Shown here piece after piece: positions 7,478-58,056 of a stretch of DNA of 64,000 bases (its first letter is position 1; every line of letters begins with the position of its first letter). The stretch comes from Isurus oxyrinchus (lineage: Eukaryota), in the NCBI GenBank assembly GCA_026770705.1, contig JANJGN010000036.1:1488001-1552000 (forward strand), written 5' to 3'. The position numbers and the translations under genes are program-made. The notes beneath the pieces were generated by a model, which was not told the DNA's origin, did no database searches, and saw only the letters and a list, made by a program, of their open reading frames with translations.

Positions 7478-7787
7478 GTGTTCTGGCGGTTCTCGTCCTC
7501 AATTAGTCCACAATTTCCGACTGAGTCTCCGTTGGTCAGACCGCCCGATTACAGTGCGAGATGCAGAACGGGAATGTGGGTAGCTACACTGTGCGCTGGT
7601 ACCGGCAGCGAACCGGAGTTGCTCCAGTCTGGGTGTTACAGCACAAGACAGATGGGAGCGTCTCTCGAGGCACCGGCTTCACTGACCGCTTCGAACCTTC
7701 GAGAGACACCTCCAGGAACAATTTCATTCTGACCATTGGAAGCCTGGAGTTCGGTGACTCCGCCGTCTATTACTGTCAGCTGGGGAG
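7478..7787 (+). pseudogene. IgL V segment, sigma-cart (type I/NS5)-like, pseudogenised
   Basis: Translates GVLAVLVLN*STISD*VSVGQTARLQCEMQNGNVGSYTVRWYRQRTGVAPVWVL...DRFEPSRDTSRNNFILTIGSLEFGDSAVYYC. Conserved Cys (7555), WYRQ and DSAVYYC (Cys 7774). In-frame stops TAG 7504-7506 and TGA 7522-7524. Confidence 0.93.
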
Positions 7788-7815
7788 CACAGTGAGACAG
7801 AGCCATACAAAAACT
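7788..7815 (+). promoter_or_regulatory. V recombination signal sequence, 12-bp spacer
   Basis: CACAGTG (7788-7794) + AGACAGAGCCAT (12 nt) + ACAAAAACT (7807-7815). Confidence 0.95.
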
Positions 7816-8134
7816 GTATGTAGAAAACCGCTCAGAATTACAACAGCAGCTGGAAAGTTCCTGGCCGAGAATATGTCATCAACTTCCAAGTTGTTCCTTG
7901 TGTAAGTTCCTGAGAAACATAACTGAGATTCCAAGGGTTAATTTACATTTTCTCCATCGCAGTTCTCAATATTACCCTCTTGAGTAACGATGAATATTAT
8001 CAGGGTTTCGCGCTATTTTTGAAATATCTCTCTTGTCCTCTGTACTCCAGCCCATGTGAAAGGGAAAATGTGACAGAAAATGTGATAATATAGAGGTTAT
8101 TAATATTTCATCCTGTACTTTTGCCCGCAGCCTG

Positions 8135-8173
8135 AGTTTTAGGTGACCCGTCCGATTACACTGCCGCTCTCTG
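8135..8173 (-). promoter_or_regulatory. Degenerate J recombination signal, 23-bp spacer
   Basis: On + strand: AGTTTTAGG (8135-8143; consensus GGTTTTTGT) + 23 nt + CTCTCTG (8167-8173; consensus CACTGTG), directly abutting J. Confidence 0.75.
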
Positions 8174-8210
8174 CAGATATTCGGAGGTGGGACTGCCTTG
8201 AATTTTCGGA
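8174..8210 (+). pseudogene. IgL J segment (QIFGGGTALNFR) with mutated splice donor
   Basis: FGxGT motif at 8180-8194; ends in phase 1 and is followed by ATAAGT (8211-8216) instead of GTAAGT. Confidence 0.9.
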
Positions 8211-9511
8211 ATAAGTGATTCCCCCTCTCTTTCCATCTTACATTGTTTCAATTATTATTAATTTAGAAGCGACTTCATTCTCCAGCGGATGTCAAATCCC
8301 CATTTCGTGAATGTTGGATCAGGTCAATTTATATCCAGAATTGTTAACTGAGTCAGACATGGAATTTAACTGCACCGGGAGAAAATAATGAAACAGAGAA
8401 TCAGAGTCAAATTATGAATTAAATTATGAAAGAACAGGCTGCTAGAAAGGCAGGTGGATGTAGATTCTATAAATACTTTCAAAAGTGGAAGTGGATAAAG
8501 ACTTGAAGGGGAAAAATTGAAGGGCTTTGCAAGCAGAGGCGGTGAGTGGGACTACTTGCAAAGCTCTTACAAGAACTAGCAGAGGCTTGAGGAGCCGCAT
8601 GACCTCTTATTTCGATGGGTCAGCCTCTATTTTTTTGATTTTCTTCCAGAGCCTTCACCGCCCCCCAAGGCACCCAAAAGCTAAATAAGCAACGAACTAT
8701 TATTCACCTAGTCACTGTTACAATGTCAGCAAAGGGATTTAGAGATTGGACAGGGAATTATGGAAATAAGAAGTTGTTGGAACACGTGAATTAATCAATA
8801 ATTCAAGTTAAAGTCAAAATGATTCGTGATTGACTTTTGACGTCCAGTCCGATTTCAGATCAGCGGGATCTATGTATTAATGAGATTTTTTCTCACTCAC
8901 ACACGCACAGTTCACAGTGTTCTGTATCTTACAGAACCCTCTCTCTCTCTTTCTTTCTGTCTCTCATAGTCTCCCCCCACCCCCTTCGTCTCTCTATCTC
9001 GCTTTCTCTCTCTCTCTCACACACACACACACTCAGGTCAGAATATCTTTGAGTACACTTTCTCTCGTCCCTCTCTCACATACGCAAAGTTCACAGTGTT
9101 CTACATATTACAGAGCTCTGTTTGTCTTTCTCGCTTTCTTTCCCTCTCATTCTCTCCCCTCTCCGTCTCTCTCTCTCTCACACACACACACATACACGCA
9201 CACACAGGTCTCTGTGTTCTATACATTAGTAAATTCTCTCTCACAGACACAGAGACGCACACACACACATAGACAAATTTGTTATGAGTTTGAATGAATT
9301 TTATTTCAAAGACCCAGACAGGTCAGTCTCCTATATAGTAAGGAATCTCTCCATCTCTCTATCTCTCTCTCATTCTCACACACACACACAGCCGCACACA
9401 CGTCAGCATTTTCTCTGCGTTAAGGGGCATTCTCCCCCCTCTCTCTCACAAACGTACAGGTCAGAGTGTTCTTTATATTAATATATTTTCTGTACTCCCT
9501 CACACACACAG

Positions 9512-9840
9512 GTACTGAGGATCGAAGGCCATCCGTCATTCTTCTTCCTCCTTCCTCGGAAGAGATAGATTCAGGCTCGGCCACTGTGTCCTGCCTGGTG
9601 AGTGACTTTAAGCCGGGTTTCGTGCGGGTCCTCTGGAGTGTGGATGGCAAAGAGACAGACAGCGGAGTGAGAACAAGCGTCGTGTCCGCGGATAGCGATC
9701 AAACCTACAGCCTGAGCAGTTACCTGAGAGTCCCAGCCACTGACTGGAAGAAGGGCTCCAGATATTCCTGCAGTGTCAGTCACGGCTCCCTGAACTCACC
9801 CCTTCTCAACACCATCAGCTTCAGCGATTGCTCACTCTGA
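9512..9840 (+). CDS. IgL constant exon, sigma-cart-like, open frame
   Basis: Acceptor ACAG at 9508-9511, phase 1. TEDRRPSVILLPPSSEEIDSGSATVSCLVSDFKPGFVRVLWSVDGKETDSGV...YSLSSYLRVPATDWKKGSRYSCSVSHGSLNSPLLNTISFSDCSL*. Both C1 cysteines, the Trp and the near-terminal interchain Cys are present. Confidence 0.95.
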
Positions 9841-16154: not shown

Positions 16155-16969
16155 GGGGGGGGGTGTGGTTGTATGGACAAACAAGCAGTGATAGAAGCAG
16201 ATCATCAAAAGATGTCGACAACAATGGTACAAAAGAACACATAGGTTGGTGATATTATCTAAACGAATGTGCTAATTAAGAATGGATGGTAGGGCACTCA
16301 AGGTATAGCTCTCGTGGGGGTGTTTTTTTTTAATTTTTTTTATATATAATGGAAATAGGTGGGAAAAGGAAAATCTTTATAATTTATTGGAAAAAAAGGA
16401 AGGGGGAAACAGAAAGGGGGTGGGGATGGGGGAGGGAGCTCACGACCTAAAGTTGTTGAATCCAATATTCAGTCTGGAAGGCTGTAAAGTGCCTAGTCGG
16501 AAGATGAGGTGTTGTTCCTCCAGTTTGCGTTGGGCTTCACTGGAACAATGCAGCAAGCCAAGGACAGACATGTGGGCAAGAGAGCAGGGTGGTGTGTTAA
16601 AATGGCAAGCGACAGGGAGGTTTGGGTCATTCTTGCGGACAGACCGCAGGTGTTCTGCAAAGCGGTCGTCCAGTTTACGTTTGGTCTCTGCAATGTAGAG
16701 GAGACCACATTGGGAGCAACGAATGCAGTAGACTAAGTTGGGGGAAATGCAAGTGAAGTGCTGCTTCACTTGAAAGGAGTGTTTGGGTCCTTGGACGGTG
16801 AGGAGAGAGGAAGTGAAGGGGCAGTTATTGCATCTTTTGCGTGGGCATGGGGTGGTTCCATAGGAGGGGGTTGAGGAGTAGGGGGTGATGGAGGAGTGGA
16901 CCAGGGTGTCCCGGAGGAAGCGATCCCTACGGAATGCCGATGGGGGTGGGGGGGGGGGGTGAAGGGAAG
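15949..16969 (-). mobile_element. 5'-truncated Penelope-like retroelement (GIY-YIG endonuclease end and 3' region)
   Basis: ORF 16440-16769: FTCISPNLVYCIRCSQCGLLYIAETKRKLDDRFAEHLRSV...ACHFN. It interrupts a duplicated block. AGTTAA is repeated at 15943-15948 and 16970-16975. Confidence 0.9.
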
Positions 16970-18463
16970 AGTTAACTCATGTTCGATTTGTGAACCATGC
17001 TTTGTGGAATGTTTTCGTGTTGGGTGTGTTTGTTGCCATCAAATACCCCCAGAGATGATACAGCACGAGGTTAAATATAGAGTAGATCTCTGTTTGCACT
17101 GTCCCATCAAACATTCCCAGGACAGGTACAGCACGGGGTCAGATACAGAGTAAATCACCCTCTACACTGTCCCCATTAAACACTCCCAGGTTGGGTACAG
17201 CACAGGGCTAGATACTGAACAAAACTATCTCTACGCTGACCCATCAAACATTCACAGGACAGGGACAGCGCAAGGTTGAATACAGAGTAATGCTCCCTCT
17301 AAGCTATCCCCATCAAACACTCCCAGGGCAGGGACAGCACAGGGTTTGTTTAAGAGTAAAGCGCCTTCTACAATTTTCCCATCAAACACTCCCAGGTCAG
17401 GTACAGCACGAGGTTAAATACAGAGTTAACACCCTGTAAACTGTAACATCAAACACTCCCAGGACATGTCAGGTACAGCACGCTGTTGGATATGGAATAA
17501 AGCTCTCGCTACACTGTATATTCGAATACTCCCCTGGTTGATAAAGTCAAGGGTTAGGGACATGTTAAAGTTCTCTTTTGATGCTTACTGATAATTAGTC
17601 CCTGGAGGTTTACAGCACATGGTTATGTACAGCGAAAATCTCCCTCTGCACTGTCCCACCATTCACTCCCAGTGCAGGAACAGCACATGGTTAGTAACAA
17701 AATAAATTTCCCTTTACAATCTCCTTTCCAACACTTCGAGGAACGGGAAAGTACAGAGTAAAGCTCTCTCAACTATCTCCCATTCATACACGCCCAAGAC
17801 ACGTAAGAAACTGGGTAAACCTTACTCTTCACTGTCCCATCAGAGACTTGCAGTAGAGAAACAACACCACTTTATATAGAAGGTCCAGCTTCTTATACAC
17901 TTTCCCTTCAATTACAGAGTAAATTTCCCTTCACAATCTCCTCTGAAACGTTTGCGGGACAGGGACAATAAAGACTAAGGCTCCTTCTACATTGTCCCTA
18001 TCAAAAACCCCAGGAAAGGTACAGTACAGAATAAAGCGCCATCTACAATCTCCCATTCAAACATGCCCACGACAGGTGCAGCACATCAAAGAAACAGAGT
18101 AAACCTTCCTCTTCACTTTCCATCAGACACTTGCAGAAGAGGTACAATACAGGGTTATACTGAGCCCCAAACTCCCTTTATACTGTTCCAGCAACTGGTG
18201 TTCAATATTAAGGAAGACTTGCTGTGGTAAAACAGAATTTTGGAGTGAAAATGGCCACCATAAACCAACTCAAAATGGCCAAATCATGTATGTGAAGGCT
18301 TCCAGAGTGCCGGAGAGAGCAACAGTGACACACTCACACATGCAGACAAACACACACACACAGACACACAAACACACATACACACACACACTCATTGGCA
18401 CAACCACAGATGCACACAGAAAGAGGTACACGCATACATAGGCACACACAGAATGAAACAGAT

Positions 18464-42259: not shown

Positions 42260-42371
42260 ATGGAATTGACTGCAGAACGAAAGACTGGTTACTTCACAAA
42301 GAAAATGCTTGAAGCATTTTACGGCATCAGGAAAGTGTACTACACAATCCTTGCCATTATTGGTGTTCCAG
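42260..42371 (+). CDS. GPR139-like class A GPCR exon 1 (N-terminus and first part of TM1); no partner exon on + in this window
   Basis: (MELTAERKTGYFTKK)MLEAFYGIRKVYYTILAIIGVP, phase-1 donor CCAG|GTGAGT. The YYxxLAIIGVP ending fits exon 1 of the two-exon GPR139/142-like receptors I recall as expanded in sharks. Confidence 0.75.
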
Positions 42372-43322
42372 GTGAGTGAGTGAAACTGTTGAAGTCGTTC
42401 AAATACTTCTGAGTAGAGGTTGTGTTTGCTCATGACGTTACCGATTATGTTGTGAGCCGATGTATGGTCACTCTTATGCAGTCATTGGATCAGTTATATC
42501 ATTTCATTCATGCTGAATGGTCCTTGCCATTTTGTTCAATTCACCGAAGCTTGACACAAACAACTGCACTGAAGTCAACATTTCGTTGCATTACCATACT
42601 CCTTCATTTAGTGGAACATCTGCAACTGGTGAATCGAACATTGGTTTAGGCAACTCTCTTAGCAAAGTATGTAGTGAAATTTTCGATGCACGATGTGTGT
42701 CAATTGGCATAAAACACCAGGCACCAGACGGAATATATTTCGCCGTAGAATTTCCAGTCCGTACGGTTCACTAAATGGATTGGAGCAAAAGAGCCCAGTC
42801 TATGTATCACTGGCAGTGTATGTAATTGCACCATTGAGGGACTTCAGTTAATGTGCAGAGACTGTAGAAACTGGCATTGTTGTCTTCAGATAAGAGGAGA
42901 TGAAGGGGGTAGATTTAAACGAGCCGGTCAAAATCATGAGAGGTTACAATAGACTAAATAAGAAGAAACTGGTACTGCTAGCAGATGGATCGCTAACCAG
43001 AAGGACACAGAATGAAGATTTTAATATAAGCGATTTGTTGTGATCTGGAAGGCGCTGCCTGAAAAGGTGATAGAAGCAGATTTAAAAGGAACTTGCAAAA
43101 GGGAAATTAGATAAATGATGATGGAGAGATATGTTCATGGATATTGGACGAAGAGCAGGGAGAATAAGACTAATTACATGCCTCTTTCAAAGGGCCTACA
43201 CTGGAACGACCGCAAGAATGGAATGCTTCTCGGCCTCCTTTTGGATCACGTTTCCCATCAGAGAATCCCAGAAGAAGAATCATTTCGCCGAGCAGCAGTT
43301 TCGAAGTATTTTGTCCCTGTAG

Positions 43323-45943
43323 GATGGTGCAATTCGGCCCTTATTGTTAGCATAATTGTCCTGGTGATGCTCTTGGTCGTTATTTCCATCAGGATTAGTA
43401 AAAGTGGCAGATCAGATGAGGGTTAATATTCATCAGGGATGTTTTTTTTTCTCTATCTGATTCGCTTCTCGCAGTTTTAAATTGCTAATTTACTTTCTGC
43501 TTCCAGGATAACGCGACAAGAGATCCCACAATGAAAATTGAGTAACTGAACCATTTGAAATGTTCACATCGAACAGCATCTCTATATTTATGACTGGGTC
43601 TAACCCAGTTCAACCCCAACAATGATTCCAATGGTATATGCTAACGTTTTTCATGAGCTTTTAAGATTAATACGAACAATTTTCTTCTCAGCTAATTTTG
43701 GCGCCCACGCCAGGATTCACAATACATAACACGTATTTGAAATTTTTGTTCGCATTCAGGTTTAACCTGGGAGAGAGAAGACAAAGACAGCGACAGAATG
43801 AGGAACAAACGGGTAAGTCCCAGTGACATGTTGGCACTGGTTAAATCTCAGTGGGTGGAATAGGAAAAAAGCGTAAGAGCATTTACCGCCATCAAATTGT
43901 TCCACAATCACAGGGCTTTCTCTGGGTCCCATGGCAAATGTCATTTTCTGATTACTAAGGGTGGAAATAATACACCAGTTGGGCAATAGTCGCCAGGCAC
44001 TTTTGGTAGACAATGCTTGTCTATCCATTGGCGAATTTAACTTCACTGAAGTGTTGAGGAAACTTCCGTGTATTGGGCGGACCTCCTGTGGATTGGGGGC
44101 CTGTTGACATTTTGGGGTCATTTTGTGCATTGGCAGAACATTAGCGAATGGTGAATTTGTAAGAATTGTGGAATAGCCAAACAGGTTTAACATTTCAATT
44201 TATAACTTAACCTTTAATAACACAGATGGCCATCGTCAAATAGAGGCAAAGCGAGAACATCGGGATGCAAGACAGGTAAGGTTTTTGAAATTGCTGCAAG
44301 AATATGCAAAAGGTCGTTTTTTTGGGGGGGATAAGAATCAAGGCTTCCCAAGTTGATATTTCATGCGCTTGTCAGAGAGCAGGCCACAGTCTGGAGAACC
44401 TGATTAAAAACAAAAATCCCACTCGCCCTTACAAATGGAACCTGAAAATATTCCCTAGCTCCTCTCCCCATCTGAAAATAGAAAGGAGAGGTCAAACTTC
44501 CACGTAGAATGTCTCCGTCACACTTAACGGTGGAGTTCCAGCAGTTCATATTTTAGATTTCTGCTATTTTCGTTTATGTTTCCATTGAGTCGTACCCCGC
44601 TCGCTCAATTCCCATCTTTTCTTTCCTTCAACTCAACCGAATTCGTACATACATTAGCCAATGGAATTACTGGGAAGATTTGACCAAACCCCGGGGCGTT
44701 TTATAGATAAATCAAAATGTGCTTCTGTTGTAAGCGGGCTAAGAAGGATCAGTTTGCGCAGAAAGTCTGTGCGTATGTGTGTTTGTCTGTGTGTGTGTGC
44801 GCGCGTGTGTACAGAGACTTCAGCACATAGTCTAGGCTGAACATCCAGAGCAAACGTTGCACTGTCTGAGGTGCGGTTTTCGCATGAAACGTTAAACCGA
44901 GGCCCTGTCAGCCCTCTCAGGTCGGGATAAAAGGTGATTCCGTTATTATGGCAAACGGAACAGTGGTGGGATGTTGGAGGAAGCGGTGTGCGAGGGTTGG
45001 GGGTCGGGGACGGGTTCTCTCTGCTTTCCGGTTTCATATTTGATCTCTGAACCAGCACCTCAAAAATAAATGATCTAGCTCATTAATTCATTGCTGTTTA
45101 TGGAGCCTTCAGGTACGTAAGTACTCTACCGCGTTGCTTTGAAAACTAAGGCTTCACGTGAAAAGAGTGGATGTGAAGATTATTAGGTTTCTGCAGTTCA
45201 TCAGAGGGGCTACATAAGCACAAGTCCTTTGATTGCATTTGGGTCATTCTTCTGAATGTGATGAATTCTGTGGGCTCTACTTAATCGTGTAGATGGCACA
45301 TGATGAAACTTAGTAATCGGATTGGCCAATTAACAACAAAGTAATCCAAATGAAATTCATAGACTGGTTATTCAAACTGTTTATTCCCAGTTGCTTTGCA
45401 CATGCTGTTGCTCGGTTGCAAAACATCAATTCAGGCAATTCTTTCAGATTCAAATAGCGGAAAAATTCCTCAATTTGATATAGAGGGCATGTGAAACCCA
45501 TTCAATAGCAACTTTCAAGAAGGAATTATAAACATAATGAAAAGAGAAAATAATGTCAGCGGTAAGGGGCTGACAGGGGTACAGTTGGCCAAACTATGTT
45601 TTTCAAAGAGCTGGTACAGACGCAATTGTCTCAAAAAGCCTCCTTCTGTGCTGTATCATTCTATAATTCCATGTAACGTAGTTGCGAGGGTGGATAATTT
45701 TACTTATCCTTTAACTACTTTTCACTGTTAATGTTTGATATCTCTCCCAGAATCAAGGCGGACCTCTCTACGCCTCCCCGGACTTGACAGCATTGGATAA
45801 CAGATCAAAAAAGAAGGCAGGTCGTAGATGAGGATCGGGCCGTTTTCTCTCTGATGAATTATGGAGGAGACAGGATTTGCCAAAGAAACAACAGACTTCT
45901 GGAAATAAACATGGAGCCAAGGAGACTCCCATCAAAAAATTAA
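43323..45943 (+). pseudogene. Decayed IgSF/SIRP-like receptor gene A: TM exon and four cytoplasmic exons
   Basis: Exons 43323-43421 (WCNSALIVSIIVLVMLLVVISIRISKSGRSDE, phase 1-1), 43507-43541, 43760-43812, 44226-44275 and 45751 onward (NQGGPLYASPDLTAL...). All have AG acceptors and the internal ones GT donors. The last four join in frame; one frameshift at the TM/cyt1 junction. Confidence 0.6.
44820..45230 (+). mobile_element. DeuSINE (SacSINE1-like)
   Basis: CTAGGCTGA...GCACTGTCTGAGGTGC...GTTAAACCGAGGCCCTGTC.GCCCTCTCAGGT...ATTGCTGTTTATGGAGC...GGCTACATAAGCACAAGTC. Inverted remnants at ~52560-52835 and ~62400-62550. Confidence 0.7.
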
Positions 45944-47531
45944 AATTTCCCCGTGCACTGGCCAGAACTTACAAAGACTAGCTCATTTTGCTAAATGTAG
46001 AAGTGGTTTTGAGTATTATTAAGGATATCCTGCCGATATCATTTAATTCAAGTTTGAAAGAAACATTGAGCAAAGACTAAGGACTTTCGTTAGTTTCTCC
46101 GGAATTTTTCTGCTGATTATCTTAGTCCGGTTAGTGACAGGATGTTAATTTCTTTATAAATGTCTGTATGTAAATCAAATAAATTATTCTTAGATTACAA
46201 CAATGCACCAGAGGTTTGTATTGATTAATAAATAATTATAATTAAATGTCATTTGGTTCAAACTACAATTTCTGTTAAACTGACAGTATCAGGCCTTGAT
46301 TGAGATGCTGCTAGATGTGGGTCTCTTTGTCTGAGATGTGATGTGCTTTCTCATTTACTGAATTATAATACAGCGGGAGAGGAACACGGGCAGTGATTCA
46401 GGGAACTTGTGATGTTTCCATTTCATTTTTACACAGTGACGTTTTGTTTATGTTGAACTTTAAACCTATATGTCAGAGATTTACTGTGAGCTTAGTGCGT
46501 TTTTGAGCGAGATTTGCTGTGGAAGGTGGATTGTAGATCTGGCCCTCTTTCCCTCAGAAAGCTGTTGAAGCTTGTATCCATTGCATTTTGTTGCAAAAGT
46601 GTATTAAGAAATCTGGAAACAAGGTGAAAGGGTGCAGTTTTGTACGTGAAGATCAATGTTGTTTTTATATATTTTGGGGACATGGTGGTGTTCCATGAAG
46701 AATTATGTGTGTGTCTGTATGTGTGTGTGTCCATGGCTAATTAAGCTCGGGAATGTCAGTAAAGACGGATAGCCTGTGGGAACTTAGAGGTGAAAGATAA
46801 AGGAGCTGGATGCATGCATTTGTAATTAGAGGCTATGGTGAAGTTATTATAAGTAAATACATTGTTTTTTGTTAAAGGGGATGAGGTATTAAGAAGAGAT
46901 TGTCTTTTCAGAAGCTAATATTTCATAAAGAAATAAAAGGGAGGTAATTAAATTGTATTTGACGTGGATGTGGAAGCAATAGGGAGGCACGAAGGATTTT
47001 TTACTTCGGAAAACCTGAGTTAAAGGGGATGCTTAACACAGTGGAGCACTGGATGAAAGTGGAAAATTGATAATTAACGGACATGCTTAGTTGAGATAAG
47101 ATTGCTGTCTGTGTGTGTGTGTGGGGGGGGGGGGGGGTGGGGGGGGGGGATGCCCTTAGAGCAGCTCTGTGCCGAGAAAAATATGGAATTTGAAGCAGCC
47201 GTCCGATTTCAACACAGAGAAGTATTTGCTTTCAAGCGGGAGACTGTTTCTGTACTTCTTTCGGATTTCCCCAGCAGTCTAGATGAGAGTGAGACATCGT
47301 GTGGTATAGAGTACTAAAGTAGGTTTTCCCTTGGGTAATTATTACTGGAGTTTTACGGTTAGAGTTCCAAAAGGGACCTGCTTCCAAATGAATTAATTGT
47401 GAATTCTGAAAAGCAAGGTTTATTTCGGAAGGATTCCTTGTCAGCCTGCTTCAACTGAAAATTTTATCTTGTGCGATTAAGATTTTTTCCGCTTGTTCAT
47501 AAACCTTTCAGTATAAGAATCGTAAAAGTTA

Positions 47532-47589
<58 letters not shown>

Positions 47590-49574
47590 TATTCTTATGA
47601 CTCGTGAGACAAGTTGCCCTCTGGGATTTCACTTGCTCAGTGAATTACACTCTTTAAGGTTGTAAAATGCACTTTAAAAAGCAATGGTCACAAACCTTAT
47701 TTTTCAATGTTAATGTTTATAATATTGCGTGTATAAAGCAAAGATATTAGGTCACCTCCGTGAAGCATCCTTTGAATTCCACTTACAAATTTAACAATGT
47801 ATTTTAGTGTGAAGACGAAGTTCCATTATTGACGTACACAGTTCAGAGCAAAGGGCTTTCAGTCACTGCTCATGTATTCTGCTTTACAAAATTCAAATTT
47901 ATTTTCAGAACAGAAGCAGGCCATTTAGCCCCTCTGCTCATTCCTGGTCTTTCTGCTCCACACGATCCTCCTCCCACACCCTCTACACCCCAGCAACATA
48001 TCTTCATATTGGTTATGTATTTATCCACCTTCCTCTTAAGTGCATCTTAGCTATTTAAGTCGGCCACTTGCTTTGGTTGCCATTTATGCCTTCTTTCCTT
48101 TCTTCTGGTAGAATTCCTGAATTCGTTTTTGGAATTATTAGTGAATATCAAATGTTGATCTCCTTTAATATAGCTCTGCCTGCAAATGGAAACGTTGACT
48201 CTCTGCCTCAACATTAGAAAGTAACCCTTCAATCTTTTGTTTTGAGGAGAAAAGAGGCCCAGACTGTTCAATCTTGCCTAATATCATAAACTATCAGTTA
48301 TGGTATCATTATTGGAGAATTGTTGCCACTTTTGAACCGCACATATCTGGTCAATAAAGATATCCTGTAACTTGCCATTGCACATTCACTGAGCATACCT
48401 GCACTAAGGATCAAACAGCCTGATTCCCAAATACAATCTTGGGTGTCAAAACGTCTTTAATGGATTCCTAAACTGTACTCTGATGCGCTCATTCCTGTTA
48501 AAGCGCGACACAAAGATACACAATGAACTTAGAAACAACATGGCAGGAAAGTAAAACTATATTGTAACTGAACAGAAAGCTAAGATTCCCGAAAGCCAAG
48601 TTAAATTTGAAACGTAGTCTACTCTGTCAGACTTGTTTACTCTTCAGTTGGTGACGAATCTTCGGGATGTATTGCTCATTATTATTAATAAACGTGAATT
48701 CAGCCGGGAACAGAATTTGAGATGGCTGTCTCTTGGAAATCCTCACACCTCCAGGCTTTCCTCTAATAAGTCCACAACAGAGGAAAATTTCCAATGCGCA
48801 TCAATGGCCGGAAGCATAACTTTAGCTCTCAATATCTTTTGCAATGATACTGTGGGATCCGCAATAAACGCCAACCGAGCAACAAGAGACAGTAAAGCAA
48901 AAGGCAAACAATTATCGTGAGCTACACCATTATCAGCAGGCCGTTCAGTTCTTTGAGCATGTTCTGCCTTTCAAAAGGATCTTTCCATCCATAGTTACAG
49001 ACTTGTCATGTACTCGTGCTCTGGAATGTGTCAGTTCATGTTCCTGATAGAAACTGGATTTTAATTGGTCTTGAAATGGCCACATTTCACATTCAAACGG
49101 CCGAAGGTGCCAACAACTCAATGATACATGGAGGCATTGAGAGCGCCGTTGAGCTCCAGCATCTCCCTGTAAGCGTTTCCTGTCGGCCAATCCCTGGGAT
49201 TCCTTCTCCCGACCACAAGAGACATCCTAGAAAGAGAAACCCGCGGCAAACGATGTCCCAGAAAGCGGGAGCTGCAGGCGGTAGGGAGCAAAAATTTAAA
49301 AATGACCTTATATTTCGGAAGAAATCCAGCAACCCGAGCCTTCTGACTCTTGCACAAGGTTCAAATAGGTACAACACCACCTATAGAGCGCAGCTCGGAA
49401 TGGGCAATCAACGTCTATCTTTTCACTGTAACCAACATAACCAAGCATGATTAAAAAACATTTGAAAATGATTAGATAAGGGAAGGAGATTTTCAAATTT
49501 GAAGATAAATTGATGGATAGATAGAGAGCGACAGTCACATGGACAGTGTGTGAGAGAATGAAAGTGAGAGGGAG

Positions 49575-50200
49575 ACGGATGAATGTATAGATAGATAGTT
49601 AGATAGATAGATAGATACATAGATACATAGATACATAGATGCATAGATGGATATATCGATAGATGTATCGTTAGTTAGATGGATGGATAGCTAGATAGAT
49701 AGATAGATGGATGCATAGATAGATAGATGCCTAAATAGATAAATGTCTAGAAAGATAGATGGATCTCTGGATAGATACATAGATGTTTAGATAGATAGAT
49801 AGGTAGACAGGTAGATAGATAGTTAGATTGATAGATAGATGTCTAGATAGATGCATAGATAGATGACTAGGTAGATAGATAGAGAGATAGATAGATGGGT
49901 ATGTTGATGGATAATTGGATAGATAGTTGGATAGATGGATGGATAGATGAATCACAAGATTGATAGATAGATGGATGGATAGATGGGTCACAAGATTGAT
50001 AGATAGATGGATAGATGGATGGTCACAAGATTGATAGATAGATGGATAGGTAGTTGCATGGATAGATGGATGGATAAGTGGATGGATAGATAGATGGATA
50101 GATAGATGGATGTTTAGATAGACAGATGACTATGTAGATCGATAGATGGATGTCCAGATAGATAGATGGATGTCTGGATAGATAGATAGAATGAAAGAAA
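49575..50200. repeat. (GATA/GATG)n tetranucleotide array; paralog at 59940-60410
   Basis: Visible directly. Confidence 0.95.
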
Positions 50201-50639
50201 GATACATTGGATGCGACCGCGAATTACATAGATATATTTATAATATACAAATGCATCAATACTTACTGGAACCCCAGGCAGGTTCTGTTCGCTGTATAAA
50301 TGTTAACTGTCCACTCGGACACTTCTAGAAAGAACAACCTCTTTTAAATGCGTTAAGCATGACTACACTTTCGCAAATTGGCACTGGCTGTCCTTAACGG
50401 ACCCGTCTATTTATGAGTTCTCACCATATTAATTTACAATAAATTTTTCTCATCGTTTGGCGGCCATGCGTCAAAGTATAATTATCTTATAGCCATCCAG
50501 CGAATTCCTTTATTATTTCATGGGTGAAACCTTATGTGGAGACCGTTTTTCAGGAAGGATATAGATTGCGGTTTTTGCGAGGCTAGTGATATTCTTTGGG
50601 CTGTATATTCACTTCAAATAAATCTTTCAATCGGGTAGC

Positions 50640-51330
50640 AGAGCAGAGGGTGCCCATGTACAGGCACAAAAGTCATTGAAAGTAGTGAGAGGAGATAAAA
50701 AAAATATTTTAAAAAAGGCCCAGCAATGTAAAGTACAAAAGCGACATTCACCCTATATCAAAACCTAGCTTGATCACACTTAGGGTCCTGTGAACATTTC
50801 TGGTCTCCATATCATAAAGAGATTATAGAGACACAGGGAAAGGCACAAAGAAGAAAAATTTTACTGGAAGGATAACAAAACTGAAAGGTGATAACAGTCA
50901 GGGATGTATGAACAGGTTAACTTCTTTTTTGAGAAATGAGTAGACTTTGAGGTGACCTGGTGAATGTTTTTAAGACTATGAAAGAGATTTTCGGGCAGGC
51001 AGAGAGAAGGAATTAGCGTTTCTTTTGAGAAACCAGTACAAAAAGCCATCAATTTTAGGTAGTCGATAATGAATCCAATCGAGAATTCAGGTGAAACATT
51101 TTAACCAGAGTCCGGGGATATTGTGGAGCTCGTTCCCATAGGGAGTGCTTTAGGTGAATTACAGAGAAGGAATAAAGGGTGATGCTGTATAAACACATGA
51201 GGGAGAACGGAACAGAAGGATATGTTGATAGAGGTCAGGTGAGGAGGGGTGGTGGGAAGTGCTTTTGGAGCAGAAACACCAGCATCGAGCCAAATGATAG
51301 AATACAATATTTCGGTGCTGGTAGTTCTAT
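50640..51330 (+). mobile_element. Decayed CR1 3' end (paralogous copy at ~61130-61860)
   Basis: CR1-like 3' sequence; both copies lie inside the 49.5/59.9 kb duplication. Confidence 0.6.
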
Positions 51331-54300
51331 GGAATAGAGATAATGAAATAGAGGAATCGAGAAAGTGTAAACGAAAATTGGGATTTATGTAATCATGTCA
51401 AAATAGCTTACCTCTCTCCATACCCTTAATTCCAAAATACACAGATGGAATTAAAAAATCAGAAAGCTAAACACTGAAATGATGAGATGCATGAGAGCGT
51501 ATTAAGCAGTGAGAAAATGATACGTGGACAAATATAAATGTAGAGATTTAATATACAAAGAAATATTGCTAAGAAATAGGCCATACATTAAATACACAAG
51601 GCAACTGTTTTCAGCTAACTCTCTGAGATGAGAGACTTTCATTTGGAAGATATACACTGGAGATGATTAGATCGACGCATGTACAGAGAGCGCCGCTGCT
51701 CCAAGTTACTTCCAGAGAATTATACAATACCTGATGCCGTAGGTTCCGTTCGGGTCGATTGTTGTGGGCTCGCTCTGTCCCTAGGGCTCCCTCCCGGAAA
51801 TATTCCAGTGGACCGCAAAGGACTCGGGGCGCACACTCTTCGCCAAACACTCCAAACTAACGATTTACATCGAGAGAATTTCAGCTGGAGGCGGAGTTAA
51901 AAGTTCGAATATTGGAGAACTTGATGGGATCGAGCGGTTTGTTTTGATCGCTTTTGGAGATTGATTATTTAATGTGTAAAGTAATCTTAATTTGTATCTG
52001 TGAAGAGCAATTTTGAGCCATTTCCAAACGTAAAGATCATTCCCCTGATCTTCTTAGCTGCAGAGTAAAACATGCCCGAATCACTGGCCTGGGCATCCAC
52101 AATATTCAGAGAACAGAGAGTAGATTCTCGTAAAATTCTCCAGATTATCAACCGGTTTGAGAGTTGTATTCTGCCACAGTGTAAACTAGTCGCAGATGCG
52201 ACCGGTGGTTATTTCTTTCCAGTCCACCGCTCCCTCCCCAACAGCACCAACCAGGCCGTGTCACAATGAATCCTGTTTTACTCCCAAGTGAGAACAGCCG
52301 GAGTCTGGGACAAAACTGCCTGAGATAAAATAACTGAGAGGTGTCACACCAACACGCTGGGTTCTGCTATGGCAGGCAGAGAGAGAAAATATTTGTTATG
52401 AGGAAACGGCCAGAACAGTGAAATATATAATAGATCATTCACTGGTTATTTTACGCTAATGGGGTCAAACGTTGAGGATTAAATTTGAAACAATAACATG
52501 ACCACGACGGAAAGAGAGGCGCATCAAAGACGAAGGAGTGCGGTCTCTGTTGTCACCTGGGAAAATTGGAAGCTGTGACTGCGCACAGCAAGACACACAA
52601 TTTACAACGTGATTATGAGCCAGGTGGTAACTATAATAATGTTTATGGAGGGTTAATATTGGACACAAGGACACGGGGGAACTCCGGCGCCTGACTGCAC
52701 CCCACTCCCCCCACCACCCCCCCCCCCCCCCCCACCTCCCACCCAATCCATCCGTTCACCCGCTAATAGTGGCCCTGGGAATCTTTGCGTCCCAAAAGTG
52801 GCAAACAAGGGGTCTCGGTTTAAGGTATCATCCGATGGATTCGAGAATGTTGACAAGTGATCGCTTCTGATGTGGTTGACATCATTCAGTGCTTAAACAT
52901 AAAGCTAATATTTTAGAATATCGGTATGGAGAAAATTTTCTACTCGGCTGAACTATCTCACTGGGGTTAAACCATCCTGAATGAGGTGTGAAGAAGGCTC
53001 AAAGGTGTAACCAGATGCAGCAACGCAAAGGACATTAAGAAGTTCTTGGTCTCCGATCCCGGGCCAGTTGCTTTGAGATTTGCACCGGCTCTTCGCTCGG
53101 GTGTCTCTGTTCTCAGCTCCGGCCTCGGAAGACGTGGTGAAAATACATATTTGGCGGAAATGATTTGCAACGTTTAAAAATAGCTCACTGGAAAAATCTG
53201 CGCGATGTAAATTTTAGTTGAGGGTTTCCTGTTTACAGCTTAGGAGATCACACACGGGTCTGCCTGCAAAGGGCAACACCCTACGTATCCTGGAAAACAT
53301 GCGTCACAGGCAGTGCACATTACAGGCTTGGGACAACAGGCAGTTGAGCTGAAATGAACAACATTATTGCTCATGAAATTCAAGTGGACAGAGGGGAAAC
53401 GCCCCTAAATAGGAACGTTCTGGTTAATTCACAGAGACAACATTAATTTATGTGGTTTCAACAAAAAGAAGAACAGGTGCAAAAAAGCTAGAAGATGATG
53501 CTAATATTTTAGGGAATCTGTCATCCCGCCTACCTCTCTGTGTCAGAATTACTCCTGTGGTTTAGCGGAGCTTCGGCCATCTGCCCTGTGGTGTTTCTCG
53601 AAAGGTCGACCCTTCTCCGACCCCTTCTTCATCGCACCCCATCAACGTATCATTCTATTCCTTTCTCACTCCTGATTGCCCAATCAATGAATCCCTCCGA
53701 TTCAGCTCGACCACTCCTTGTCACAACGAGTTGTACATTCTCACCACTGTATGAATAAAGAGATTTCTCCAACATTCCTGATTGCATCTACTGGTGATTA
53801 TCTTATACTGATGGCCCCTATTCTTGTCTCTGCCACAAGTTGGAATATTTTCTTTACGTCTACCGTAGGGAGTACATTCATAATTTTAAAGACATCTATC
53901 AGGTCACCCGCACAGCCTGCAATTTTCAAGAGGAAAGAGCCCGAGCCTGTTCAATCTTTCCTGATAATTTTAACCTCGAAACCGGGGAAAACAGTTTCGT
54001 GCCCCAATGCAAACCATGTAATCTGGTGTAAATTAACGAGCATTTTATGATATCCTGAATCATCCAGGTATCGATAATGGGTGGAAAATCGGTAAATAAG
54101 ATTCACTTGCAGAATGATCCACGACTAAAATCTTATGCAATCTTTTGGGCAACACATTTATAGGATCCTCTATCTGATCTGTCTTGAAGAATAAATAATA
54201 CCAGTGAACACTGTCAGAGAACGGTAATCTGCTAAAATCTACAAATCCCTCATTAACGTTTTTGAATCCGTTATCATATATTTCAAACCATTTTACATTT

Positions 54301-54388
54301 GTCTCTGAAGGACTCGTTAATATTCCTTGTCTCAGAGCAGATTAATGATGCACTTTAACGTTTCTCAAACTTCGATATGAATTGAATA

Positions 54389-56537
54389 TGACCTCATCTC
54401 CTCTGGGGATCTTCCTCCCACAGCTTCCAACCTGATAGTTGGCCAAACTCGGACGGCCCGCTTCTATCTCCTACCCAAAATCCACAAACAGAACTGCCCC
54501 GGTAGACCAATCGTCTCAGCTTGCTCCTGCCCCACGGAACTCATTTCTCGTTATCCTGACTCGCTTCTCTCTCCCCTTGTCCAGTCCCTTCCCACCTACA
54601 TCCGTGATTCCTCTGACACCTTATGTCACATCAACAATTTCCAGTTCCCTAGCCCCAACCGCTTCCTTTTCACAATGGATGTCCAATCCCTCTACACCTC
54701 CATCCCCCGCCAGGATGGTCTGAGGGCCATTAGCTTCTTCCTCGAACAGAGGCCCGAACAATGACCATCCACCACTACTTTCTTCCGTCTGGCAGAACTT
54801 GTTTCACACTGAACAATTTCTCCTTCAACTCCTCTCACTTCCTCCAAATAAAAGGTGTGGCTATGAGTACCCACATGGGCCCCAGCTATGCCTGTCTCTT
54901 TATGAGGTATGTGGAACATTCCTTGTTCCAGTCCTACTCCGGCCCCCTTCCACAACTCTTTGTCTGGTTCATCGATAATTACTTCGGTGCTGCTTCATGA
55001 TCTCATCGGGACTTGGAAAAATTTATTAATTTTGCTTCCAATCTCCACCCCTCCAACATTTTCACGTGGTTCCCTTCCTTGACCTCTCTGTCTCAATCTC
55101 TGGTGATAGACTATCCACCAATGTCCATTACAAACCCACAGACTCCCACAGCTACCTCGACTACAGCTCCTCACACCCCGCTTCCTGTAAGGACTGCATC
55201 CCATTCTCTCAGTTCCTTCACCTCCGTCGCATCTGTTCCAATGATGCTACCTTCAAAAACAGTTCCTCTGACATGTCCTCCTTCTTCCTTAACCGAGGTT
55301 TTCCATCCATGGTCGTTGACAGGGCACTCAACCGTGTCCAGCCCATCTCCCGCGCATCCACCCTCACGCCTTCTCCTCCCTCCCAGAAACATTATAGGTT
55401 CCCCCTTGTCCTCACTTATCACCCCACCAGCCTCCGCATTCAAAGCATCATCCTCCGCTATTTCCACCAACTCCAGCATGATGCCACCACCAAACACATC
55501 TTCCCTTCACCCCCCCCCCCATCGGCATTCCGTAGGGATCGCTCCCTCCGGGACACCCTGGTCCATTCCTCCATTACCCCCTACTCCTCAACCCCCTCCT
55601 ATGGTACCACCCCATGCGCATGCAAAAGATGCAACACCTGCCGCTTCACTTCCTCTCTCCTCACCGTCCAAGGGCCCAAAAAGTCCTTTCAAGTGAAGCA
55701 GCATTTCACTTGCATTTCCCGCAAATTAGTCTACTGCATTCATTGCTCTCAATGTGGTCTCCTCTACATTGGAGAGACCAAACGTAAATTGGGTGACCGC
55801 TTTGCAGAGCACCTGTGGTCTGTCCGCAAGAATGACCCAAAACTCCCTGTCGCTTGCCATTTTAACACTCCACCCTGCTCTCTTGCCCACATGTCTGTCC
55901 TTGGCTTGCTGCATTGTTCCAATGAAGCCCAACACAAACTGGAGAAACACCACCTCATCTACTGACCAGGCACTTTGCAGCCTTCCGGACTGAATATTGA
56001 ATTCAACAACTTTAGGTCTTGAGCTCCCTCCTCCATCTCCATCCGCTTTCTGTTTCCCCCTTCCTTTTGTTCTTTTCCAATAAATTATATAGATTTTTCT
56101 TTTCCCACCTATTTCCATTATTTTTAAATATTTTTAAATCTTTTATACTCTCCCTACCCCCACTAGAGCTATACATTGAGGGCCCCACCATCCATTCTTA
56201 ATTAGCACACTCGTTTAGATAATATCACCAACTTTAACACCTTTTGTTCTATTGTTGGTGACATCTTTTGATGATCTGCTTCTATTACTGCTTGTTTGTC
56301 CCTACAACCACACCAACCCCATCCACTTGTCTCTCTCTCTCTCTCCACGCACCCCCCCTCCCCCCCCGCCCCACACACACACACACACACCTTAAACAGG
56401 CTTATATTTCAACTCTTTCTTGGACTCGAATTCAGGTTGTGTCAAAGGGTCATGAGAACTCGAAATTCAACTCTTTTCTTCTCCGCCGATGCTGCCAGAC
56501 TTGCTGAGTTTTTCCAGGTAATTCTGTTTTTCTTTTG
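54389..56537 (+). mobile_element. Penelope-like retroelement (RT + GIY-YIG), 5'-truncated and disrupted
   Basis: RFYLLPKIHKQNCPGRPIVS, TMDVQSLYTSIP, KGVAMSTHMGPSYACLFM, PFLDL..YKPTDSHSYLDYSSSHP and LVYCIHCSQCGLLYIGETKR. GATATGAATTG flanks both sides (54374-54384, 56538-56548). Confidence 0.93.
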
Positions 56538-57151: not shown

Positions 57152-58056
57152 TTAGTTATTTTGTTTATTAATGGATTGAATAATTAATATAACCGGATAT
57201 TTCAGCATGCTCTTTAACTGCTGCCTAAACTTAGAATGAGTCGCCCCATAAATAATGATTGCATGCAGCAAATTAAATCCACCAGCATGTATCCAACTTT
57301 TCAAAGCTTATATAAAGACCCTACAGAATTATTGGGATCAGACCCTGTAATGACATGATATAAAAATCAACGATTCTGTCTGTCAACCACAGAAGTAAGA
57401 AACTGCCAGGTATGGTGAAGAGTAAAATCACAGACTTCCTTCTGCTCTCCTTCTCTGCGTCACTGGGAGAATTTCCCTTCCTCTGGCCTCTCAGTCCCTT
57501 ACAACTCGACAGGCAACAAAAACATATCTGGCAGTCAGAACGTTAAAAAGCAGAATTAAAACAAATTGGAACAATGGGGTTAAAAACATATCAAACAAGT
57601 CAAACCAACCCACCGGGGCTCAGTGAAATAACTTGTCTTCATCATACAAAAGAACAGCACTTTCTCGATTGTCTTTCCAGCTTCATATGTAAATTAGGCA
57701 GGAACATTTTTAAAAAAAGAATAGAATGCTGGTTGTTGCTCGAATTGCAACTGCGGTTTTATCGCAATATTTCAGTTTCACATGGCTGCAACAGATATCC
57801 ACATATCTATCAAAGGAGAAAGTGACGGTGAATCAAACAGAACATTCTCTTGCTGCACCAATCAGGACAGCGCGAATAACATACACAGTGGTGATGTTCA
57901 GGAAGCTCATGGGGGATTACTAAAAATGATCTGAAAGAGTAGGATCTCGGTGATAATGACCAGTAGATCGGCCGTTGCCATGGCCACAAGGTAGCACGTG
58001 GTGCAGACGGAGGCCACGCTTTCTGCTGGACAGGGTCATAATCGCTACTAAATTAA
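57152..58056 (-). pseudogene. GPR139-like GPCR exon 2 (TM1-TM7 and tail), multiply disrupted
   Basis: Acceptor (T)9ACAG, then (V)NLVAIMTLSSRKRGL/CTTCYLVAMATADLLVIITEIL...SV*FTVTFSFDRYVDICC...LTPLFQFVLILLFNVLTARYV...ESRRKSVILLFTIPGSFLLLW...IYGATHSKFRQQLKSMLKYPVILIIQSINKQNN*. DRY motif intact; several frameshifts and stops. Confidence 0.88.

What the first reader, a model, noticed from the sequence alone, without database searches (positions are those of the whole stretch)
43323..45943. Hidden multi-exon inhibitory-type immune receptor remnant (TM, short cytoplasmic exons, two eroded ITIM/ITSM motifs)
Seen: a hydrophobic TM exon (43323-43421) is followed by exons of 35, 53 and 50 nt and a terminal exon. 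The last four splice in frame to DNATRDPTMKIE-FNLGERRQRQRQNEEQT-DGHRQIEAKREHRDARQ-NQGGPLYASPDLTALDNRSKKKAGRR*. After a slip in the A-run at ~45810 the alternative frame reads RRQVVDEDRAVFSLM. Known: ITIM is (I/V/L/S)xYxx(L/V) and ITSM is TxYxx(V/I), usually paired about 20-25 aa apart in SIRP/PD-1/Siglec-type receptors. Inference: single substitutions (CCT<CTT, CCG<CTG, TTC<TAC) restore LLYASL and AVYSL, so this looks like a decayed SIRP-like or novel shark inhibitory receptor that ORF scanning misses.
Basis: partly seen in the sequence, partly recalled or inferred. Interest (0 to 1): 0.72.

Follow-up and report, generated by a model that had tools for sequence, protein, structure and literature searches.

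The report
Headless tail of shark receptor pseudogene
This is the broken back half of one copy of a large shark family of antibody-shaped surface receptors that are likely inhibitory; a recent DNA duplication likely cut off its front end and left it behind the first exon of an unrelated gene, and the family carries one tyrosine motif per chain, not two.

Summary
They are the 3' half of chain 'A' of a tandem family on this contig (39 other copies fetched, 11 open full-length): leader, single-exon V(J), C1, TM, four cytoplasmic exons. It is not SIRP, PD-1 or Siglec; it resembles PRARP/VJ-C1 pairs (recalled). The scan found this family before on other DNA.

Corrections: the true TM exon ends at 43415 and the next exon is 31 nt (ERDKRSHNE frame). 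Both donors are mutated here and there is a nonsense codon. There is one tyrosine motif, GPLYASL; Pro at Y-2 is ancestral (34 of 34). The 'second ITIM' lies behind a conserved stop and has Tyr in 0 of 34 copies.

New here: homology ends at 42835, the junction of a ~92-kb tandem duplication (1.3% mismatch, 4-nt microhomology) that puts the tail behind a copied GPR139-like GPCR exon 1. The twin tail shares every lesion, so the gene was dead before duplication. The chimera is in frame but stops at 71 residues.

Intact A chains likely pair with a head-to-head chain 'B' (TLYARL); predicted complex 0.67 vs best control 0.01, possibly by Fab/TCR likeness. Verdict: pseudogene fragment.

The parts
42260..42371 (+). 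Copied exon 1 of a GPR139-like two-exon GPCR gene (37 codons + 1 nt, phase 1); not part of the receptor
   Evidence: Identical to exon 1 of the intact 340-aa GPCR at C36:1620694-1622632; exon 2 of that gene is Pfam 7tm_1, best PDB hit GPR139, E 1.2e-10
42835..42838 (.). Junction of a ~90-94 kb tandem duplication; 4-nt microhomology TGAG
   Evidence: Left side matches C36:1621214-1621272 (100%), right side C36:1436785 onward (98%); found once among 40 scored of 262 candidates; units align over 89.8 kb with 1.3% mismatch; no N at the junction
43323..43415 (+). TM exon (93 nt; 102 nt in intact copies), membrane-proximal Cys; donor GT>AT, 9-nt deletion
43507..43537 (+). Cytoplasmic exon 1 (31 nt, phase 1 to 2); nonsense TAA at 43509; donor GT>TT
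   Evidence: frame matches database proteins
43760..43812 (+). Cytoplasmic exon 2 (53 nt), splice sites intact
   Evidence: donor GT in 37 of 37
44226..44275 (+). Cytoplasmic exon 3 (50 nt), splice sites intact
   Evidence: donor GT in 35 of 37
45751..45831 (+). Coding part of terminal exon; single tyrosine motif at 45763-45780 (family PLYASL, here PLYASP), polybasic end, stop 45829-45831
   Evidence: third-position diversity highest in this frame: 0.10/0.10/0.17; same ending in 13 of 22 database homologues
45832..46250 (+).
48851..52333 (-). Decayed copy of partner chain B (V, C1, TM and tail remnants), convergent with the finding

Best explanation
The finding is the non-coding 3' half of a chain-A gene of a shark family of non-rearranging V(J)-C1-TM receptors, left headless at the junction of a likely recent tandem duplication. 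Order of events: (1, shown) the parent copy, now at C36:1.435-1.440 Mb (L011), is broken in its head (frameshifted V, damaged leader donor) and tail (two dead donors, a nonsense codon, Leu>Pro in the motif); (2, shown) the window copy shares all tail lesions, so they predate the copy; (3, inferred) a ~92-kb segment running from the parent's C1-TM intron to intron 1 of a GPR139-like gene was duplicated head to tail through a 4-nt microhomology, likely a replication template switch; (4, shown) the junction sets GPCR exon 1 in frame with the TM exon, but every route that keeps the normal exon order stops at residue 71; (5, inferred) any such transcript would be decayed or give an inert peptide. 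How the intact family likely works (inferred, about 55%): chain A and the head-to-head chain B form a disulfide-linked, TCR/Fab-shaped germline heterodimer on leukocytes; each chain brings one YAxL motif (A: PLYASL, B: TLYARL) that on phosphorylation recruits SHP-1/SHP-2 and damps activation.
For: Family and models: (11 of 39 fetched copies open with canonical sites; a twelfth flagged by the script, L031, lacks the terminal exon). Domains V-set and C1-set. No RSS in 11 of 11 A heads and 11 of 11 B heads, with the IgL RSS found as control. Same exon frame and ending in Heterodontus, Scyliorhinus and Stegostoma proteins. Junction and duplication; tail differs from twin at 28 of 3466 sites, none in the lesions. 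Long stem (0.15) to the window/twin pair. B head-to-head within 3.9 kb in 15 of 36 A copies. Complex of basking-shark A and B ectodomains: 0.67 vs best control 0.01, contacts agree at least 85%, partner pLDDT 78; mark reached by 51 of 78 solved and 2 of 108 mismatched pairs. Distant V-C1-TM relatives in rays, lungfish, bichir, caecilian, frogs, turtles, alligators and lizards mostly end in one YAxL/V motif, often a canonical ITIM. Microhomology duplications that make chimeric junctions: PMC2518615, abstract (yeast).
Against: No read crosses the junction in any call, so a false duplication in the assembly is not excluded. Expression of this locus is unknown. PLYASL fails the strict ITIM consensus at Y-2 and YxxL can also be an endocytosis signal (own knowledge). 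The complex may score by likeness to solved Fab/TCR pairs; homodimers were not tested; the tool did not use the alignments. 21 of 36 A copies show no B leader in the 3.9 kb fetched. No signalling data exist in any call.
Confidence: 0.85

Rival explanations
1. The duplication is an assembly artefact: two haplotypes of the same 92-kb segment laid in tandem, so the headless copy is only an allele of the L011 pseudogene.
For: The units are 98.7% alike; immune clusters are hard to assemble (own knowledge); no read support was obtained.
Against: The junction is contiguous, without N, with a clean 4-nt microhomology between two unrelated introns; many other near-identical copy sets exist in the cluster (tree); 1.3% mismatch plus a 3.5-kb length difference between units.
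Confidence: 0.09
2. The junction made a new working gene: the GPCR promoter and exon 1 splice onto the TM exon to give a 71-residue membrane peptide, or, by the weak donor at 43422 and exon skipping, a 113-114 residue form that reaches the terminal exon.
For: Exon 1 is identical to the intact twin, upstream region differs at 6 of 1039 sites, phases match, TM acceptor intact; in-frame routes exist.
Against: Normal exon order stops at residue 71, upstream of further junctions; longer routes need a non-conserved donor (GT in 3 of 37) and skipping; the motif is YASP; all lesions are inherited from a dead parent; no sign of selection can be seen at under 1% divergence.
Confidence: 0.04
3. One reading: a decayed SIRP/PD-1/Siglec-like receptor with two eroded ITIM/ITSM motifs separated by a frameshift.
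For: A TM exon, short cytoplasmic exons and one YASL-type motif are present; three broken copies (L043-45) and one database model (P0009) run into the downstream frame.
Against: Stop position TGA 34 of 34, Tyr at the second site 0 of 34, Pro at Y-2 34 of 34; 13 of 22 database homologues end at the same stop and none has a second motif; ectodomain is V + one C1.
Confidence: 0.02

Closest known systems
PRARP pair (Fu et al. 2019, PMID 30770416; title seen in the reference list of PMC10751288, paper not held, content recalled) and VJ-C1 genes of Ohta et al. 2019 (PMC6761025, not held)
   Same: Non-rearranging single-exon VJ plus C1, two genes as a pair, one ITIM- or ITSM-like motif per chain, relatives in fishes, amphibians and reptiles; PMC10751288 and PMC11599192 passages list PRARP among joined-VJ genes
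   Different: Dozens of copies rather than one pair; chain A lacks FGxG (LQNGPTLLVG) and has Pro at Y-2; orthology to chicken PRARP not tested; this copy is a headless pseudogene
NITR (bioRxiv 10.1101/2021.06.11.448072, passages)
   Same: Clustered, single-exon VJ, inhibitory, charged-TM and secreted forms
   Different: Second domain is C1-set with three Cys, not the six-Cys I domain
UrIg / UrIg2 (PMC12227049, first three of eight parts read)
   Same: Shark non-rearranging VJ plus C1 domains, auto-annotated as Ig light chain
   Different: UrIg has three C1 and is secreted, UrIg2 nine or more C1; here one C1, TM and a tyrosine tail
SIRP-alpha, PD-1, Siglecs (recalled)
   Same: Ig-type receptor with tyrosine-based inhibitory motif; SIRP also has VJ-C1
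   Different: One C1 and one Tyr motif; no paired ITIM/ITSM on one chain; no C2-set domains

Membership tests
Shark chain-A V(J)-C1-TM family (this cluster) | Exon series 102-31-53-50-terminal with GPLYASL and basic end | tested here: met
   Met as a decayed copy:
Shark chain-A V(J)-C1-TM family (this cluster) | Leader, V and C1 exons upstream; open frame | tested here: not met
   Homology ends at 42835; nonsense and dead donors: a fragment, not a gene
PRARP / VJ-C1 pair | V and J-like G strand in one exon, no RSS | tested here: met
   0 RSS in 11 A and 11 B heads, control found; B has FGNG, A a degenerate form
PRARP / VJ-C1 pair | V-C1 ectodomain (feature recalled) | tested here: met
   Pfam V-set and C1-set above cut-off for A and B
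PRARP / VJ-C1 pair | Two linked genes, each with one ITIM/ITSM-like motif (recalled) | tested here: met
   B head-to-head in 15 of 36 A copies; A PLYASL, B TLYARL
PRARP / VJ-C1 pair | Chains form disulfide-linked dimers (recalled) | tested here: inconclusive
   Predicted complex passes but may reflect Fab/TCR likeness; membrane-proximal Cys in both chains
PRARP / VJ-C1 pair | Orthology to chicken PRARP1/2 (tree, synteny) | not testable with these tools
   Paper not held; none of 20 relatives looked up is named PRARP or is a bird
Canonical ITIM | S/I/V/LxYxxI/V/L (as written in bioRxiv 2021.06.11.448072) | tested here: not met
   Y-2 is Pro in 34 of 34; window also has Pro at Y+3. ITIM-like by homology to relatives with I/V at Y-2
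SIRP / PD-1 / Siglec | Two or more tyrosine motifs on one tail (recalled) | tested here: not met
SIRP / PD-1 / Siglec | V-C1-C1 (SIRP), V only (PD-1), V plus C2-set (Siglec) ectodomain (recalled) | tested here: not met
   V plus one C1
NITR | Membrane-proximal I domain with six cysteines | tested here: not met
   C1-set domain with three Cys (definition)
UrIg / UrIg2 | VJ followed by three or more C1 domains | tested here: not met
   One C1 exon (definition)

The most novel reading that the evidence does not exclude
Probability: 0.35. Interest if true: 0.7.

Novelty: new member of a known kind. Interest (0 to 1): 0.3.

Why it matters
The copy itself matters little: it is a dead fragment. It shows how this cluster turns over (90-kb duplications that carry receptor pairs, an Ig light-chain minicluster and GPCR genes together, and cut genes inside introns). 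The intact family matters more: non-rearranging VJ-C1 membrane receptors bear on the origin of antibodies and T-cell receptors and on what shark NK-like cells use as inhibitory receptors. Databases label them 'Ig light chain-like' or 'uncharacterized', and the paper searches made here returned no paper that describes the shark expansion; the two most relevant papers were not held.

Tried and rejected
RNA: no RNA holder listed for the stretch. Contigs of four runs of another species label were laid: no joint between the exons; one 584-nt contig lies on 45748-45905 with 25 differences and goes on unlike the intron, which fits a spliced relative but shows nothing about this copy. No read-level test of the junction was obtained, so that question stays open. 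A first RSS scan missed its positive control and was redone. Pairing counted from the two capped hit lists gave only 8 of 40, an undercount because both lists are incomplete; replaced by the direct test. Crossover between LINE fragments was considered for the junction and rejected: the right side lies in a common repeat but the GPCR intron has no match beyond 4 nt. Papers 30770416, PMC6761025 and PMC10530332 not held. PMC11372145 has none of six terms searched. Search for a GPR139 expansion paper listed none with the term among 10 shown. No supplements were read; those of PMC12227049 and PMC10751288 could list these genes.

Full report
Setting. The window is G000:C36:1488001-1552000. The V domain of an intact paralogue is 97% identical to a Carcharodon protein, so the host is likely a lamniform shark.

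Observation. A search of the genome with 43250-44320 gave 42 matches among 40 scored of 96 candidates, all on C36 between 0.6 and 4.1 Mb: the window, 39 other loci and two split hits. I fetched the 39 loci and aligned them. Exons are more conserved than introns. The alignment corrects two boundaries. The TM exon ends at 43415 (donor GT in 34 of 37; AT in the window and its twin L011) and has lost 9 nt. In the true frame (ERDKRSHNE, also in database proteins) the window has TAA at 43509.

Motifs. In 34 aligned terminal exons (six left out because the exon did not align) Y-2 is Pro in 34, Tyr is kept in 28, Y+3 is Leu/Met/Val in 32, and TGA stands at 45829 in 34. The supposed second motif has TTC in 31 and Tyr in none. 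Third positions vary most in the frame that ends at this stop (0.10/0.10/0.17). Thirteen of 22 database homologues end GP(L/T/I)YASL...AGRR-like at the same stop, from Heterodontus and Scyliorhinus; a Stegostoma protein does too. So one motif, ITIM-like but with Pro at Y-2, and the window's only lesion in it is Leu>Pro.

Family. Upstream of the tail, paralogues have a 55-nt leader, a 327-nt V exon and a 330-nt C exon, Pfam V-set and C1-set. Eleven of 39 copies are open with canonical splice sites; several of these have lost a V cysteine. No RSS lies in 11 A or 11 B heads, while the same scan finds the IgL RSS at 7788. A second family, B, has at least 40 copies: leader, VJ with FGNG, C1, TM with a membrane-proximal Cys, tail ending TLYARLAF. 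B lies head-to-head within 3.9 kb in 15 of 36 A copies. A and B are 31% identical. A profile search found 36 proteins at E up to 1e-30 and 385 at 1e-10; many are V-C1-TM proteins with one terminal YAxL/V motif. Twenty looked up come from sharks, rays, lungfish, bichir, caecilian, newt, frogs, turtles, alligators and lizards; none is named PRARP. Basking-shark A and B ectodomains gave a predicted complex of 0.67 against a best control of 0.01, contacts agreeing at least 85%, partner pLDDT 78; the mark was reached by 51 of 78 solved and 2 of 108 mismatched pairs. Fab and TCR pairs are solved look-alikes, so this shows likeness more than binding.

Why this copy has no head. Similarity to every paralogue, even the 99% twin, stops at 42835. 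The DNA left of it matches C36:1620234-1621272 at 99%, where the same exon (42260-42371, identical) is followed by exon 2 of an intact 340-residue GPCR (7tm_1; best PDB hit GPR139). C36:1436785-1530838 and 1530835-1621272 align in tandem over 89.8 kb with 1.3% mismatch. The three sequences share TGAG at the junction and nothing more. This is the pattern of a microhomology-mediated tandem duplication (mechanism: PMC2518615, abstract, yeast; transfer to sharks inferred). The twin L011 has its own broken head and all the tail lesions, and the pair sits on a long stem, so the gene was dead first. Exon 1 and the TM exon are both phase 1; all routes that keep the 31/35-nt exon or retain the intron stop at residue 71; two skipping routes through a weak donor reach the terminal exon, with YASP.

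Comparison. Not SIRP, PD-1, Siglec (definitions recalled), NITR (definition) or UrIg/UrIg2. It works like, and probably belongs to, the PRARP/VJ-C1 pairs; that paper was not held, its content is recalled, and orthology was not tested (about 65%). Earlier notes of this scan reached the same family on this contig and in other genomes; they are unchecked AI notes and not counted as support. None shown mentions this junction (one search returned nothing near).

Verdict. Real exons, partly wrong model; a headless pseudogene fragment at a duplication junction (0.85). Interest 0.3: the copy is ordinary decay, the family is interesting but not first seen here.

Noticed in passing
window 7525-9840 (+): Ig light-chain minicluster: V (in-frame stops just upstream of 7525) with a 12-spacer RSS at 7788, a J-like FGGG at ~8180 and a C1 exon at 9424-9840; duplicated with the unit at C36:1586059-1588393.
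   Followed up: partly
window 57356-58040 (-): Broken GPR139-like GPCR exon 2; such GPCR genes are interspersed through the receptor cluster and have many relatives on C21, C44, C59, C127.
   Followed up: partly
window 48851-52333 (-): Decayed chain-B gene convergent with the finding.
   Followed up: partly
L034, L036, L027, L030, L032, L042 TM exons: Arg within or at the start of the TM segment in six broken A copies (and just before it in open L033), a possible activating form.
   Followed up: partly
P0010, P0011, P0020, P0027: Database isoforms that skip the symmetric TM exon, suggesting secreted forms of chains A and B.
   Followed up: no
L038, L039, L040: Three further headless A tails, cut inside the TM exon and preceded by a copy of the family's own downstream sequence.
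   Followed up: no
P0023 (basking shark model): An automated model fuses two B genes across a GPCR-like first exon, so the same interspersion exists in another lamniform.
   Followed up: no
window 16440-16976 (-) and 54381-55965: Retroelement ORF remnants that look Penelope-like (label recalled, not tested).
   Followed up: no
chain A V domain: Extra Cys pair (CQGANC) in the C'-D region of most A copies and an extra Cys (CTC) in the C1 F strand of both chains.
   Followed up: no
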